Shown: one piece after another, positions 55,844 to 57,259 of the stretch
How positions within the stretch are numbered: the stretch's first letter is position 1
How the letters are laid out: every line of letters starts with the position of its first letter
Source of the DNA: a phage
Sequence record: OZ346167.1
Strand: one strand, 5' to 3'
DNA: 64,000 nt
Notes under the pieces: model-generated
Database searches by the model: none
What the model saw: the letters and a program-made list of their open reading frames with translations, nothing else
What the model was told of the DNA's origin: nothing
Program-made: the position numbers and the translations under genes

Positions 55844-57259
55844 ATGAGCGAGTTATTTAAACATGCGCACCTTCATGCAGGTCGAACTGAAAATGGTGCT
55901 GTAAACCATACTTCATCAATGTCTGCTCTGGTAGACTTTTACAAAGCCGCTGGCTCAAGCCGTAGCAATGTAGAAATCTTACCAGACCTGTTCTACAAAG
56001 CTTTGCATGAGGATGTTGATGTTGCAGTTCGTATTTTACTGCATATGCGAGATGTACGAGAAGGTATGGGTGAGCGTAAAGCTTTCCGAACTGTTTTACT
56101 TCAAGCAATTGAAGATAAGATTTTAGAACCTACACAGGTTCTTCGCATTATGGATAAGGTTGCAGAACTTGGTCGTTTTGATGACTTCAAAATCTTCGTA
56201 GGTACTCGTTTTGAGACAGATGCCTTCAAACATTTAGAAGCAGCATTACTAGACCCTGCAACAGCAGGTTTAGCAGCTAAGTGGTTGCCACGAGTAAAAC
56301 CACGCCACAAACAGTTTGTAAAACGTTTCTGTAAGTTTGCAAACTTAAGCGAGAAAGAGTACCGCACACTGTTATCTGCACTGTCTGATACGGTTGAGCA
56401 AAAAATCTCTGCTAATGAGCTTGGTAAGATTGACTACAGCAAGATTCCTTCACTCGCTGCTGCACGTTACCAAAAGCTCTTTAACCGTAAAGATGGAGAA
56501 CGTTACAAATCTTACATCGAATCACTCTCAAAGGGTGAGGCTAAGATTAACGCTGGTGCTGTTTACCCATACGATGTGATTAAGTCTATCAAGCATGGTA
56601 ATGCAGATGTTGCCAATGAGCAGTGGAAAGCACTACCAAACTGGATGGCAGAAGGTGAGAACATCTTGTGTATGACCGATGTTTCAAGCTCAATGTCTTG
56701 GGTGAATCTTGGCTCAATTACTGCCCTTGATATTGGTGTATCACTTGCCTTGTATGTAGCAGAACGCAATACAGGTTGCTTCAAGGACGAGTTAATGATT
56801 TATTCAACAAACCCTCACTTCATCGAACTGAGTGGTGATTTACGAAACCGTCATCGTCAGGTGATGCGACATGTTGAATATGGCTCAACTAACTTACAAG
56901 CAGCTTTTGACCGCATTCTTGAGGTAGGTAAAAGAAACAACTTGACTCAGAAAGACATGCCAAGTAAGCTTATCATCTTCTCCGATATGGAGTTCAATCA
57001 GGTTGATGGAGCTAACGGTCGTACAAACTTTGAAGTAATTCAGAGTAAGTACAAAAAAGCTGGATACGAAATGCCTCAACTGGTATTCTGGTACTTAGCA
57101 AACCGTAATGGCACTTGCGAAGTATCCGTTAAGGATAACGGTGTAGCAATGGTATCTGGTTTCTCTCCAGCCACTTTAAAAGCTCTGCTTGGTGGTGAGA
57201 AGTTTGACCCAATCAGCGTAATGCTCAAAGCAGTAATGATTGACCGTTACATCTGGTAA
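55844..57259 (+). CDS. vWA-domain protein with MIDAS motif; possibly TROVE/Ro60-like
   Basis: helical N-terminal ~270 aa then MIDAS DVSSS in ILCMTDVSSSM. Confidence 0.55.
   Translation: MSELFKHAHLHAGRTENGAVNHTSSMSALVDFYKAAGSSRSNVEILPDLFYKALHEDVDVAVRILLHMRDVREGMGERKAFRTVLLQAIEDKILEPTQVLRIMDKVAELGRFDDFKIFVGTRFETDAFKHLEAALLDPATAGLAAKWLPRVKPRHKQFVKRFCKFANLSEKEYRTLLSALSDTVEQKISANELGKIDYSKIPSLAAARYQKLFNRKDGERYKSYIESLSKGEAKINAGAVYPYDVIKSIKHGNADVANEQWKALPNWMAEGENILCMTDVSSSMSWVNLGSITALDIGVSLALYVAERNTGCFKDELMIYSTNPHFIELSGDLRNRHRQVMRHVEYGSTNLQAAFDRILEVGKRNNLTQKDMPSKLIIFSDMEFNQVDGANGRTNFEVIQSKYKKAGYEMPQLVFWYLANRNGTCEVSVKDNGVAMVSGFSPATLKALLGGEKFDPISVMLKAVMIDRYIW

What the first reader, a model, noticed from the sequence alone, without database searches (positions are those of the whole stretch)
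55844..57259. vWA/MIDAS protein immediately upstream of the tRNA array; possible Ro60/TROVE-like RNA-binding factor
This 471-aa protein has a helical N-terminal region followed by a von Willebrand A domain with a MIDAS motif (DVSSS). That architecture is reminiscent of TROVE/Ro60-type proteins, which bind structured non-coding RNAs and are often encoded next to tRNA-like Y RNA genes. Its position directly before an array rich in tRNAs and tRNA-like spacers makes an RNA quality-control or RNA-binding role worth testing.
Basis: inference. Interest (0 to 1): 0.5.

Follow-up and report, generated by a model that had tools for sequence, protein, structure and literature searches.

The report
Phage Ro60-like protein with Y RNAs
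This Felix O1-type phage gene encodes a highly diverged look-alike of the RNA-binding ring protein Ro60, and next to it, hidden among the phage's tRNA genes, lie previously unannotated tRNA-mimicking small RNAs of the kind Ro60 proteins normally bind; the same protein-RNA pairing recurs in very different phages.

Summary
ORF 55844-57259 (+) encodes a 471-aa protein with a helical N-terminal domain and a vWA domain carrying a complete MIDAS motif (DVSSS). It ends 165 nt before a 25-tRNA array in a Felixounavirus genome.

The new part is the RNA. Four unannotated modules lie in the array spacers, 0.3-1.6 kb downstream on the same strand. All share a bulged closing helix and a CAGCAA loop. One (58693-58830) also has a permuted tRNA-like domain (V, T, closed acceptor, D), as in bacterial YrlA Y RNAs.

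A covariance model finds such modules beside the homologous gene in 29 of 79 sources (this window plus 78 related loci), always on the gene's strand and often within 150 nt. It also finds them in a mycobacteriophage and a rhizobiophage. Covariation is strong.

T4 and T5 tRNA regions, taken as lacking the gene, have none. Rfam YrlA does not capture these RNAs.

The protein's Ro-likeness is already in database annotations; the RNA family appears unreported. RNA binding and function are inferred, not shown.

The parts
55844..57259 (+). Gene for the 471-aa Ro60-like protein (Pfam DUF2828 + DUF7788; PHROG 850 'RNA-binding protein')
55925..56632 (+). Helical (HEAT-like) N-terminal domain, residues ~28-263. 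It superposes on the Ro60 ring in the predicted model. It contains invariant R69/D70/R72/G74/G76/E77/R78, G110/R111/D113/D114 and K146/W147. The stretch encoded at 56264-56341 (residues 141-166, AGLAAKWLPRVKPRHKQFVKRFCKFA) has 8 Lys/Arg and one His among its 26 residues.
56663..57235 (+). vWA domain, residues ~274-464. It aligns with the Ro60 vWA domain together with the preceding helix (AVYPYD against Ro60 RIHPF).
56678..56692 (+). MIDAS motif DVSSS (D279-x-S281-x-S283). The remaining MIDAS residues T349 and D381 are also invariant.
55776..55805 (+). Sigma-70-like promoter match (TTGACA-18-TAAAGT) upstream of the gene. This is a consensus match only.
57278..57398 (+). Two sigma-70-like promoter matches (57278-57306 and 57369-57398) between the gene and the tRNA array. 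This gap holds promoters, not a Y RNA.
57591..57668 (+). Short stem module M1 between tRNA-Glu and tRNA-Met: outer helix UGAC/GUCA, AGA bulge opposite G, inner helix AGACCAA/UUGGUCU, CAGCAA loop
   Evidence: 37.3 bits
57757..57826 (+). Short stem module M2 between tRNA-Met and tRNA-Asn: UUGC/GUAA, AGACCGU/ACGGUCU, CAGCAA
   Evidence: 41.9 bits
58603..58685 (+). Short stem module M3: GAGC/GCUC, AGACCAA/UUGGUCU, UCAGCAA
   Evidence: 32.4 bits
58693..58830 (+). YrlA-like module M4. It has the same bulged closing helix and CAGCAA loop. Inside is a permuted tRNA-like 4-way junction: V hairpin, T arm GAAGG-UUCGAUU-CCUUC, closed acceptor-like stem ACUCGGC-AGAU-GUCGAGU, U8, and D arm GUGU-AAUGGUA-GCAC.
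   Evidence: (130.5 bits)
57425..63554 (+). Array of 25 tRNA genes in which the modules are embedded. Module ends lie 3-10 nt from the neighbouring tRNA ends.
55392..55763 (+). Upstream DUF5681 gene (123 aa). It co-occurs with the Ro-like gene only in Ounavirinae-type loci and is probably not a universal partner.

Best explanation
The gene encodes a deeply diverged structural homolog of the Ro60/Rsr ring protein: a HEAT-like helical domain closed by a MIDAS-bearing vWA domain. It belongs to the DUF2828/DUF7788 family. I infer that it forms a ribonucleoprotein with small RNAs encoded just downstream in the tRNA array. These are three short stem-bulge-stem RNAs (M1-M3) and one YrlA-like RNA (M4) with a circularly permuted tRNA-like domain. 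All four are transcribed with the tRNAs. Their ends abut tRNA ends, so RNase P and the tRNA 3'-end processing enzymes would release them. The protein would most likely recognise the conserved bulged closing helix and the single-stranded UNCAGCAA loop. That is the counterpart of the stem-bulge-stem with its CGAA/GNCGAA motif that canonical Ro60 proteins bind. The tRNA-like domain would then recruit or decoy a tRNA-recognising or RNA-degrading host factor. By analogy with bacterial Rsr-Y RNA-PNPase and phage phiLo Ro60-Yrl-PNPase complexes, the particle would reshape structured-RNA surveillance during infection, plausibly for the benefit of the phage's own tRNA pool. What is shown: the fold similarity on a predicted model; the existence, conservation and covariation of the RNA family; and its genomic linkage to the gene. 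What is inferred: binding, processing and downstream function.

For: RNA in the window. The four copies of CAGAAGACCnnTTnCAGCAA account for 4 of the 5 window matches to that pattern at up to 3 mismatches; none of 100 shuffles gave 5. All four fold into the same bulged helix, with compensatory differences between copies. They are conserved in number and order in Felixounavirus, Suspvirus and Mooglevirus while their interiors diverge.

RNA elsewhere. Model R2 gives 107 hits at E<=0.05 in 1.39 Mb, all on the gene's strand. There are 48 non-tRNA full-length hits in 29 of 79 sources (the window plus 78 related loci). The nearest hit is within 150 nt of the gene in 12 of them and within 4 kb in 21. 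For the 23 best hits, 88% of cells are paired against 38-42% when partners are slid, 35 of 39 pairs change on both sides, and 0 of 500 shuffles reach the observed score. Conserved nucleotides are UNCAGCAA, GGUUCGAnUCC, U8 and the D-loop GG.

Distant lineages. Mycobacterium phage Lewan has a 61.6-bit module 100 nt after its 'Ro-like RNA binding protein' gene, with no tRNA genes annotated in that 11-kb locus. Sinorhizobium phage phiM7 has two modules.

Controls. T4 and T5 tRNA regions give nothing apart from tRNA artefacts. These phages are taken to lack the gene from the organism counts; this was not checked directly. Beside a canonical TROVE Ro60 (phage Alice), R2 matches only the tRNA-like core, at the place where Rfam YrlA also hits, and the stem module does not match.

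Precedent. YrlA layout and genomic linkage are described in PMC4201824. Phage phiLo Ro60 binds stem-bulge-stem Yrl RNAs and host PNPase (PMC12135203).
Against: No sequence-level match to the TROVE domain was found: 0 of 58 members hit it, and the PDB profile search was empty. The helical domain is roughly 80-100 residues shorter than in Ro60. I could not inspect coordinates, so ring closure and a central cavity are unverified. The fold evidence rests on a predicted model. Modules were detected in only 29 of 79 sources, and about half of the loci show neither tRNAs nor modules within 10 kb. Minimum-free-energy z-scores of single sequences are modest, -0.4 to -1.75. The covariation counts were made on model-fitted alignments, which lean towards the structure. 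The canonical GNCGAA motif is absent, and Rfam YrlA does not reach threshold: no hit for M4, 21 bits for Lewan against a gathering score of 69. There are no binding, expression or phenotype data.
Confidence: 0.72

Rival explanations
1. The protein is a generic vWA/MIDAS protein-protein interaction factor, for example a cochaperone-type or Ku-like module. It has nothing to do with RNA, and its resemblance to Ro60 is an artefact of the shared vWA domain plus an unrelated helical bundle.
Against: Ro60 scores about twice the vWA-only Z. It aligns 400 of 471 residues in one rigid superposition, so the helical domain and its orientation relative to the vWA domain both match. All 12 top Foldseek hits are Ro60/TROVE. 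A covarying structured RNA family is tightly linked to the gene in unrelated phages.
Confidence: 0.08
2. The RNA modules are features of tRNA arrays only: processing spacers, degenerate or permuted tRNA pseudogenes, or remnants of mobile elements. They sit near the gene merely because the gene tends to lie near tRNA arrays.
For: In the window all four modules lie inside the tRNA array, flush with tRNA ends. About a third of homologous loci have tRNAs within 5 kb. The model contains generic T and D arms and gives ~30-bit artefacts at tRNA-tRNA junctions.
Against: Modules occur next to the gene in loci with no tRNA within 10 kb by ARAGORN (L056, L055, L045) and in the Lewan locus, where none is annotated. 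In 12 loci they lie within 150 nt of the gene. The non-tRNA parts (closing helix, bulge, CAGCAA loop) are conserved and covary. The T4 and T5 tRNA arrays have none. The acceptor-like stem is closed by a loop and lacks CCA, so these cannot be ordinary tRNAs.
Confidence: 0.12
3. The modules are cis-acting elements of the gene's own transcript, such as an autoregulatory leader or trailer or a processing or stability element, and not separate trans-acting Y RNAs.
For: In several loci a module ends 12-130 nt before the start codon or begins 18-34 nt after the stop codon (L011, L019, L048, L044). It must therefore be co-transcribed with the gene.
Against: In the window and other Ounavirinae the modules are separated from the gene by promoter-like sites and tRNAs. 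Multiple copies per locus are common. Canonical Y RNAs are also co-transcribed with rsr and then released (PMC4201824). This reading is still compatible with the protein binding them.
Confidence: 0.08

Closest known systems
Ro60 / Rsr (Pfam TROVE PF05731 + vWA_Ro60 PF25045), including phage phiLo Ro60 (PDB 9l5y) and the 'Ro-like RNA binding proteins' of actinobacteriophages
   Different: About 60 residues shorter, with a smaller helical domain. No TROVE sequence signal. 11-16% identity to solved Ro60s. Different Pfam families (DUF2828/DUF7788). Different host range: 710 phage records across Proteobacteria, Firmicutes, Actinobacteria and Cyanobacteria phages, against 353 mostly actinophage records for the canonical type. 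The partner RNA carries CAGCAA instead of GNCGAA.
YrlA bacterial Y RNA (Rfam RF02553; Chen et al. 2014, PMC4201824)
   Same: A terminal 5'-3' stem with an internal bulge, enclosing a permuted tRNA-like domain in the order V, T, closed acceptor-like stem, D. The T loop, U8 and D-loop GG are conserved. It lies within 4 kb and on the same strand as the Ro-like gene. My model cross-hits the tRNA-like core of a bona fide YrlA next to a canonical phage Ro60.
   Different: It does not reach the Rfam YrlA threshold: no hit for the window, 21 bits for Lewan against a gathering score of 69. The stem module differs: a conserved UNCAGCAA loop and a bulged G in place of GNCGAAN0-1G. In this phage it is embedded in a tRNA array and accompanied by three short copies that lack the tRNA-like domain. 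These are functionally reminiscent of Salmonella YrlB.
Pfam DUF2828 / DUF7788 family (PHROG 850)
   Same: The window protein is a clear member (E 7e-29 and 3e-43; PHROG 850 E 6e-181). Fold relatives include Acinetobacter phage ME3 (TM 0.88) and giant-virus proteins.
   Different: The family has no described function. I found no functional paper. Databases carry only the labels 'RNA-binding protein', 'Ro-like RNA binding protein', 'putative ribonucleoprotein' or 'vWFA protein'.
Stable RNAs of unknown function in phage tRNA clusters (T4 rnaC/rnaD; T5 RNA1, RNA2, RNAI, RNAIII and others)
   Same: Small non-tRNA RNAs embedded in phage tRNA gene clusters and released by tRNA processing. Some are described as tRNA-like.
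   Different: None of them matches the covariance model. T4 and T5 appear to lack the Ro-like gene.

Membership tests
Ro60/TROVE protein family | TROVE (HEAT-repeat ring) domain detectable by sequence (Pfam PF05731) | tested here: not met
   0 of 58 family members hit PF05731 at E<=10. hhalign to 3- and 24-sequence TROVE profiles aligns only residues 233-452. PDB sequence and profile searches found no Ro60.
Ro60/TROVE protein family | Ro60-type vWA domain with a complete MIDAS motif (DxSxS...T...D) | tested here: met
   hhalign gives 90% probability, E 1.6e-6, with DVSSSM aligned to DVSASM, T349 to T445 and D381 to D469. These residues are invariant in 58 homologs. 12 of 58 members hit Pfam vWA_Ro60 weakly.
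Ro60/TROVE protein family | Overall fold: helical repeat domain and vWA domain in the Ro60 arrangement | tested here: met
Ro60/TROVE protein family | Closed ring with a central cavity that admits single-stranded RNA ends | not testable with these tools
   Model coordinates cannot be inspected here. The helical domain is shorter than in Ro60, so ring size and closure are unknown.
Ro60/TROVE protein family | Binds Y RNA and/or misfolded RNA | not testable with these tools
   Needs EMSA or RIP. There is only indirect support from the linked RNA family and from the basic helical stretch at residues 141-166.
Ro60/TROVE protein family | Y RNA gene nearby on the same strand (within ~4 kb; PMC4201824) | tested here: met
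   M1-M4 lie 332-1571 nt downstream on the + strand. In 21 of the 79 sources searched (this window and 20 related loci) a module lies within 4 kb of the gene, and all hits are on the gene's strand.
Pfam DUF2828 + DUF7788 (PHROG 850) | Scores above the curated gathering thresholds of both Pfam models | tested here: met
   PF11443 scores 101.4 bits (cut-off 29). PF25043 scores 148.2 bits (cut-off 27.1). PHROG 850 matches at E 6e-181 over the full length.
YrlA Y RNA (Rfam RF02553) | Permuted tRNA-like domain with V, T, AS and D stem-loops in that order | tested here: met
   RNAfold of M4. The AS helix is 97.8% paired with 7 of 7 pairs covarying, the T helix is 97% paired and the D helix 93%. The consensus has T-loop GGUUCGAnUCC, U8 and D-loop GG. 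R2 cross-hits the core of the YrlA element of phage Alice.
YrlA Y RNA (Rfam RF02553) | Terminal 5'-3' stem with an internal bulge (stem-bulge-stem) | tested here: met
   P1 (4 bp) and P2 (7-8 bp) are separated by a 3-nt bulge opposite a single G. P2 is 92% paired with 8 of 8 pairs covarying.
YrlA Y RNA (Rfam RF02553) | GNCGAAN0-1G motif near the 5' end (proposed Ro60 contact) | tested here: not met
   The window has 12 matches to the variant searched (GNCGAAG), against 11.45 expected by chance. The one inside M4 overlaps the T stem. The conserved loop motif is UNCAGCAA instead. Canonical-type phage Alice does carry GGCCGAAGG.
YrlA Y RNA (Rfam RF02553) | Reaches the Rfam gathering score (69 bits) | tested here: not met
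   No YrlA hit on M4 at E<=10. Lewan scores 21.1 bits over model positions 30-81 only. No family at gathering score covers the modules in 7 distant loci.
YrlA Y RNA (Rfam RF02553) | Carries tRNA-type modifications and is a substrate of tRNA enzymes | not testable with these tools
   Experimental only.

The most novel reading that the evidence does not exclude
DUF2828/DUF7788 proteins are a second, ancient lineage of Ro60-type ring proteins with their own cognate class of Y RNA: a CAGCAA-type stem module on a YrlA-like permuted tRNA core. The lineage is spread through hundreds of phages of Gram-negative, Gram-positive and actinobacterial hosts, with protein relatives in giant viruses. In tRNA-rich phages the Y RNAs are matured from the tRNA array itself. 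The particle acts as a counter-defence or quality-control device that protects, repairs or triages the phage tRNA pool, or decoys host tRNA-targeting nucleases and exoribonucleases, during infection.
Probability: 0.25. Interest if true: 0.85.

Novelty: new variant of a known kind. Interest (0 to 1): 0.66.

Why it matters
Ro60-Y RNA particles are conserved from bacteria to humans and are a major autoantigen. Their molecular job, and the role of the tRNA-like domain of bacterial Y RNAs, are still poorly understood.

If this reading holds, a diverged Ro60 lineage with its own Y RNA class is present in easily manipulated model phages of E. coli and Salmonella (Felix O1 type). It is also present in Listeria, Staphylococcus, Campylobacter and Vibrio phages, some of which are used in biocontrol. 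That would give a tractable genetic system for asking what a Ro-Y RNA particle does.

It would also link Ro-type RNA surveillance to phage tRNA arrays, which are currently discussed as counter-measures to host tRNA-cleaving defences. It would give a function to a Pfam 'domain of unknown function' family. And it would add an RNA family that current annotation pipelines miss: no RNA feature is annotated at the module in any record inspected, out of about 250 Felixounavirus-group records that carry it.

Tried and rejected
1. A Y RNA in the 165-nt gap between the gene and tRNA-Pro (57260-57424). The gap holds two TTGACA promoter-like sites and a hairpin over one of them, and no model hit.

2. The canonical Ro-binding motif GNCGAAG. 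The window count equals chance, and the M4 match overlaps the T stem.

3. Rfam families. Only tRNAs were found; there is no Y_RNA or YrlA hit on the window.

4. Sequence searches of the PDB with the protein and with its profile found nothing relevant. NCBIfam and PADLOC gave nothing.

5. N-terminal sequence homology to TROVE with a larger profile is still not detected.

6. T4 rnaC/rnaD and the T5 stable RNAs are not members of the RNA family. The only T4 hit is a junction of two tRNAs at 30.9 bits, which sets the artefact level.

7. RtcB ligase as a conserved neighbour. It is present only in the Listeria phage locus.

8. DUF5681 as a universal partner. It is restricted to Ounavirinae-like loci.

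9. The Listeria phage hit (35 bits) overlaps tRNA-Lys, and the Campylobacter hit is weak (26.6 bits). I treat both as unresolved.

10. The AFDB fold library was unavailable.

11. The supplementary phage list of Chen et al. 2014 is not held.

12. Literature searches for DUF2828, for Felix O1 with von Willebrand, for YrlA with phage, and for Ro-like with mycobacteriophage returned only genome announcements or unrelated papers.
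Full report
**1. The observation.**
The window is a Felixounavirus (Felix O1-like myovirus) genome segment. The region 55300-57500 is 97% identical to phages ekra, JH2 and UAB_Phi87. ORF 55844-57259 (+) is real and encodes 471 aa. DVSSS is encoded at 56678-56692. ARAGORN finds 25 tRNA genes from 57425 to 63554, all on the + strand, the first starting 165 nt after the stop codon.

**2. What the protein is by sequence.**
Pfam assigns DUF2828 (PF11443, E 7e-29) and DUF7788 (PF25043, E 3e-43), not TROVE. PHROGs assigns phrog_850, labelled 'RNA-binding protein', at E 6e-181. 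NCBIfam and PADLOC give nothing. Sequence and profile searches of the PDB give nothing relevant.

The family is large. There are 2747 proteins at E<=1e-3 in the metagenomic collection, all about 460-490 aa with the same two Pfam domains, and many sit on 80-260 kb phage contigs. There are 710 records in the phage collection, covering Escherichia, Mycobacterium, Salmonella, Vibrio, Listeria, Staphylococcus, Campylobacter, Enterococcus, Bacillus, Aeromonas and other hosts.

In a 58-sequence alignment reaching down to 42% identity, the MIDAS residues D279, S281, S283, T349 and D381 are invariant. So are several basic and aromatic residues of the helical domain: R69, R72, R78, R111, K146 and W147.

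**3. What it is by fold.**
AlphaFold2 on that alignment gives a confident model: pLDDT 88.5, pTM 0.88, helices over residues ~28-263 and an alpha/beta domain over ~274-464.

- Foldseek against the PDB returns Ro60/TROVE structures as its 12 best hits. These are Xenopus and human Ro60, a 'Trove domain' entry, Thermus phage phiLo Ro60 and Deinococcus Rsr. E-values are 1e-7 to 1.5e-6 and TM scores 0.48-0.65 over about 510-550 alignment columns. After that the list falls to vWA-only proteins at E>=1.8e-3 and TM ~0.22.

Four hundred residues superpose in a single rigid-body alignment. The helical domain and its orientation relative to the vWA domain are therefore both Ro60-like.

In the viral structure library the nearest neighbours are DUF2828/DUF7788/VWFA proteins of Acinetobacter phage ME3, Pithovirus, Marseillevirus, CroV and Mimiviridae. 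They are followed by a Gordonia phage 'Ro-like RNA binding protein' and a crAss-like TROVE protein at TM 0.62-0.64.

**4. Sequence-level link to Ro60.**
I recalled the human Ro60 sequence and verified it against PDB 9nen. That search also gave me Xenopus Ro60 and Deinococcus Rsr.

- Profile-profile comparison with these three gives 80% probability.
- Comparison with a 24-sequence TROVE alignment gives 90% probability, E 1.6e-6.
- In both cases only residues 233-452 align, against Ro60 314-536. That region is the last helix of the ring (AVYPYD against RIHPF) plus the vWA domain, with the MIDAS residues aligned.
- Twelve of 58 family members weakly hit Pfam vWA_Ro60, and none hits TROVE.

All canonical bacterial Rsr proteins are TROVE+vWA_Ro60. 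The phage family is thus a parallel two-domain architecture. Its C-terminal half is detectably homologous to Ro60. Its N-terminal half is Ro60-like only by predicted fold.

**5. The RNA partner in the window.**
The gap between the gene and tRNA-Pro holds promoter-like sites, not an RNA gene.

The spacers at the start of the tRNA array contain four copies of CAGAAGACCnnTTnCAGCAA, each followed 50-130 nt later by GGUCUGG. These four are 4 of the 5 window matches to the pattern at up to 3 mismatches, and none of 100 shuffles gave 5.

All four fold the same way:

| Module | Outer helix (4 bp) | Inner helix (7-8 bp) |
|---|---|---|
| M1 | UGAC/GUCA | AGACCAA/UUGGUCU |
| M2 | UUGC/GUAA | AGACCGU/ACGGUCU |
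| M3 | GAGC/GCUC | AGACCAA/UUGGUCU |
| M4 | UUAC/GUAA | AGACCGUU/AACGGUCU |

Between the two helices is an AGA bulge opposite a single G. After the inner helix comes an unpaired UNCAGCAA. The outer helix differs in sequence between copies but stays paired, and the inner helix also covaries.

Three modules are short (M1 57591-57668, M2 57757-57826, M3 58603-58685). The fourth (M4, 58693-58830) encloses a four-way junction read in this order:

- a V-like hairpin;
- a T arm, GAAGG-UUCGAUU-CCUUC;
- a 7-bp acceptor-like stem closed by a tetraloop, ACUCGGC-AGAU-GUCGAGU;
- U8, then a D arm, GUGU-AAUGGUA-GCAC.

This T-before-D, closed-acceptor arrangement is exactly the layout described for bacterial YrlA Y RNAs (V, T, AS, D inside a terminal stem). 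Those RNAs lie within 4 kb of the Ro60 gene on the same strand (PMC4201824). Y RNA stems in general are bulged helices whose bulge is the main Ro60 contact (PMC4030889). The phiLo phage Y RNA-like molecules are described as a 5'-3' stem flanking a bulge with a CGAA motif (PMC12135203).

The module ends lie 3-10 nt from the neighbouring tRNA ends. Ordinary tRNA processing would therefore release them. This last point is an inference.

**6. Comparative evidence for the RNA.**
The four modules are conserved in number, order and closing helices in Suspvirus (phiSUSP1, EcSzw_1) and Mooglevirus (HP1, ESh21), while their interiors diverge. M4 carries no RNA annotation in any record inspected, out of about 250 records that contain it; a few place small hypothetical ORFs over it.

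In five Ounavirinae M4 sequences the acceptor-like stem is 100% paired, with 3 of 7 pairs changed on both sides. The T and D arms are invariant.

A covariance model built from these (R1) found full-length matches in distant phage loci that I had fetched only because they encode a 38-53% identical protein. A second model built from those matches (R2) gave these results:

- 107 matches at E<=0.05 in 1.39 Mb, every one on the gene's strand.
- After removing hits that overlap ARAGORN tRNAs, 48 full-length hits at E<0.01 remain in 29 of 79 sources (this window plus 78 related loci).
- The nearest module is within 150 nt of the gene in 12 of these, within 500 nt in 16 and within 4 kb in 21. Examples are L011 at -12 nt, L019 at -13 nt, L048 at +18 nt and L044 at +34 nt.
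- Three of the loci (L056, L055, L045) have no tRNA within 10 kb.

On the 23 best hits:

- 88% of cells are paired, against 38-42% when partners are slid.
- 35 of 39 pairs have changes on both sides.
- No shuffle out of 500 reaches the observed covariation score.
- The closing helix P2 is 92% paired, with all 8 pairs covarying.
- The acceptor-like stem is 97.8% paired, with all 7 pairs covarying.

These alignments are fitted to the model, which inflates such counts somewhat. The helices nevertheless have essentially unrelated sequences in different phages. Conserved nucleotides are UNCAGCAA after P2, GGUUCGAnUCC, U8, the D-loop GG and a bulged G near the 3' end. Single-sequence folding energies are only modestly better than shuffles, so the support is comparative and not thermodynamic.

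**7. Reach and controls.**
- Mycobacterium phage Lewan encodes a 34% identical protein annotated 'Ro-like RNA binding protein'. It has a 61.6-bit module with UACAGCAA 100 nt downstream of the gene, in an unannotated gap. No tRNA genes are annotated in that 11-kb locus.
- Sinorhizobium phage phiM7 has two modules, at 52 and 44 bits.
- The T4 tRNA region gives only a tRNA-tRNA junction artefact at 30.9 bits. T4 rnaC and rnaD do not match.
- The 30-kb T5 tRNA region, with eight annotated stable RNAs of unknown function, gives nothing above 24 bits, and its hits fall on ordinary tRNA genes, mostly anticodon or T arms.
- I take T4 and T5 to lack the gene from the organism counts. I did not check this directly.
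- Rfam contains YrlA (RF02553, gathering score 69). It does not hit M4 at E<=10. It scores 21 bits on the Lewan RNA, over the tRNA-like core only. No Rfam family covers the modules in seven distant loci.

The last control used a phage with a canonical TROVE-type Ro60, Mycobacterium phage Alice. There, Rfam YrlA hits an element about 190 nt upstream of the Ro gene at 37 bits. My model hits the same element, but only locally over positions 36-111, which is the V-T-AS-D core. The stem module does not match. The Alice elements carry GNCGAA-like motifs instead (GGCCGAAGG, GGCCGAGAG).

The tRNA-like core is thus shared with bona fide YrlA, while the stem module differs between the two protein families. 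That is what one would expect if the stem module is the protein-recognition element.

**8. tRNA adjacency.**
- In 83 loci, every ARAGORN tRNA lies on the same strand as the gene.
- About a third of the divergent loci have tRNAs within 5 kb. Several have one within 20-180 nt.
- Roughly half have no tRNA within 10 kb.
- The KVP40-like Vibrio phage phi-pp2, Yersinia phage P778, a 143-kb contig, Campylobacter phage CPX and Listeria phage VAfA18 all place the gene beside a tRNA array.

Adjacency to tRNAs is therefore frequent but not universal, and the RNA module is the more specific companion. In the Listeria phage an RtcB-like 'tRNA splicing ligase' lies 1.2 kb downstream. This recalls the bacterial rsr-yrlBA-rtcBA operon, but RtcB is not a general neighbour. 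The window phage encodes a polynucleotide kinase at 36229-36921.

**9. Mechanism.**
The best-supported reading has three steps:

- The protein is a Ro60-type ring protein.
- It binds the bulged closing helix and CAGCAA loop of the adjacent RNAs.
- The tRNA-like domain of the M4-type RNA engages a tRNA-recognising or RNA-degrading host factor.

The precedents are Rsr-Y RNA-PNPase in bacteria and phiLo Ro60-Yrl-PNPase, in which the phage particle attenuates PNPase. The fold, the RNA family and the linkage are shown. Binding, processing and the downstream role are inferred.

**10. Novelty.**
The protein's Ro-likeness is already recorded in annotations: PHROG 850, RefSeq 'RNA-binding protein', SEA-PHAGES 'Ro-like RNA binding protein' and 'putative ribonucleoprotein'. 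No functional study was found.

The earlier survey of bacterial and phage Y RNAs searched only genomes annotated as containing a TROVE domain. That would not have captured this family.

The CAGCAA-type YrlA-like RNA family, its embedding in tRNA arrays and its linkage to DUF2828 proteins appear to be unreported and are absent from Rfam. I therefore rate the whole finding as a new variant of a known kind.

Noticed in passing
window 59268-59541 (+): Possible phage tmRNA-like element. The reading frame GCA AAC GAC AAT GTT TTT CTG GCA GTA GCT TGA TAG (59305-59340) encodes ANDNVFLAVA followed by two stops, close to the E. coli tmRNA tag ANDENYALAA. Downstream is a tRNA-like element (59459-59541; Rfam tRNA 31.7 bits, not called by ARAGORN) whose acceptor stem CGGGGCG/CGCCUCG has a G3:U70 pair and is followed by ACCA. 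Rfam tmRNA_permuted scores 31.7 bits at 59153-59336, below its gathering score of 47. phiSUSP1 annotates the equivalent tRNA-like element as tRNA-Arg.
   Followed up: partly
L030 1353-1676 (+): A related phage contig carries a permuted tmRNA that passes the Rfam gathering score (71.7 bits against 47). It lies 2.8 kb upstream of one of the YrlA-like modules.
   Followed up: no
window 58019-58462, 59775-60179, 60876-61289 (+): Three small Cys- and His-rich ORFs (134-147 aa) are interspersed in the tRNA array. They look like HNH-type homing endonucleases. The last two share a 96-nt repeat at 71% identity.
   Followed up: no
window 52633-53766 (-): A 377-aa protein with three repeats of an Ig-like segment (ITQQP...GGxLxL...GYQWKKDG...GSYTCVV), the last two nearly identical. 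It is reminiscent of Hoc-type capsid decoration proteins.
   Followed up: no
L091 (Listeria phage vB_Liva_VAfA18) 415-11455: The Ro-like gene ('putative ribonucleoprotein', 4953-6479) lies between a 10-tRNA array and an RtcB-like 'putative tRNA splicing ligase' (7700-9019). A NADAR protein and another ligase lie further downstream. The arrangement resembles the bacterial rsr-yrlBA-rtcBA RNA repair operon.
   Followed up: partly
L098 (phage T5) 8285-19567 (-): T5 annotates eight stable RNAs of unknown function inside its tRNA region: RNAI, RNAIII, RNAIV, RNA1, RNA2, RNA2H, RNA3 and RNAX. Two are called tRNA-like. None matches the covariance model built here, so they remain unexplained.
   Followed up: partly
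L031 15696-15922 (+): A group I intron (Rfam 71.5 bits, above gathering) lies in a phage contig that also carries the Ro-like gene and a module 56 nt upstream of it.
   Followed up: no
window 36229-36921 (+): A polynucleotide kinase homolog, 96% identical to JH2 gp019. It is a possible RNA end-healing enzyme elsewhere in the same phage genome.
   Followed up: no
BFVD structural neighbours (no window coordinates): Close fold relatives of the protein occur in giant eukaryotic viruses (Pithovirus, Marseillevirus, Cafeteria roenbergensis virus, Mimiviridae), annotated DUF2828/DUF7788/VWFA. The family is therefore not confined to phages.
   Followed up: no
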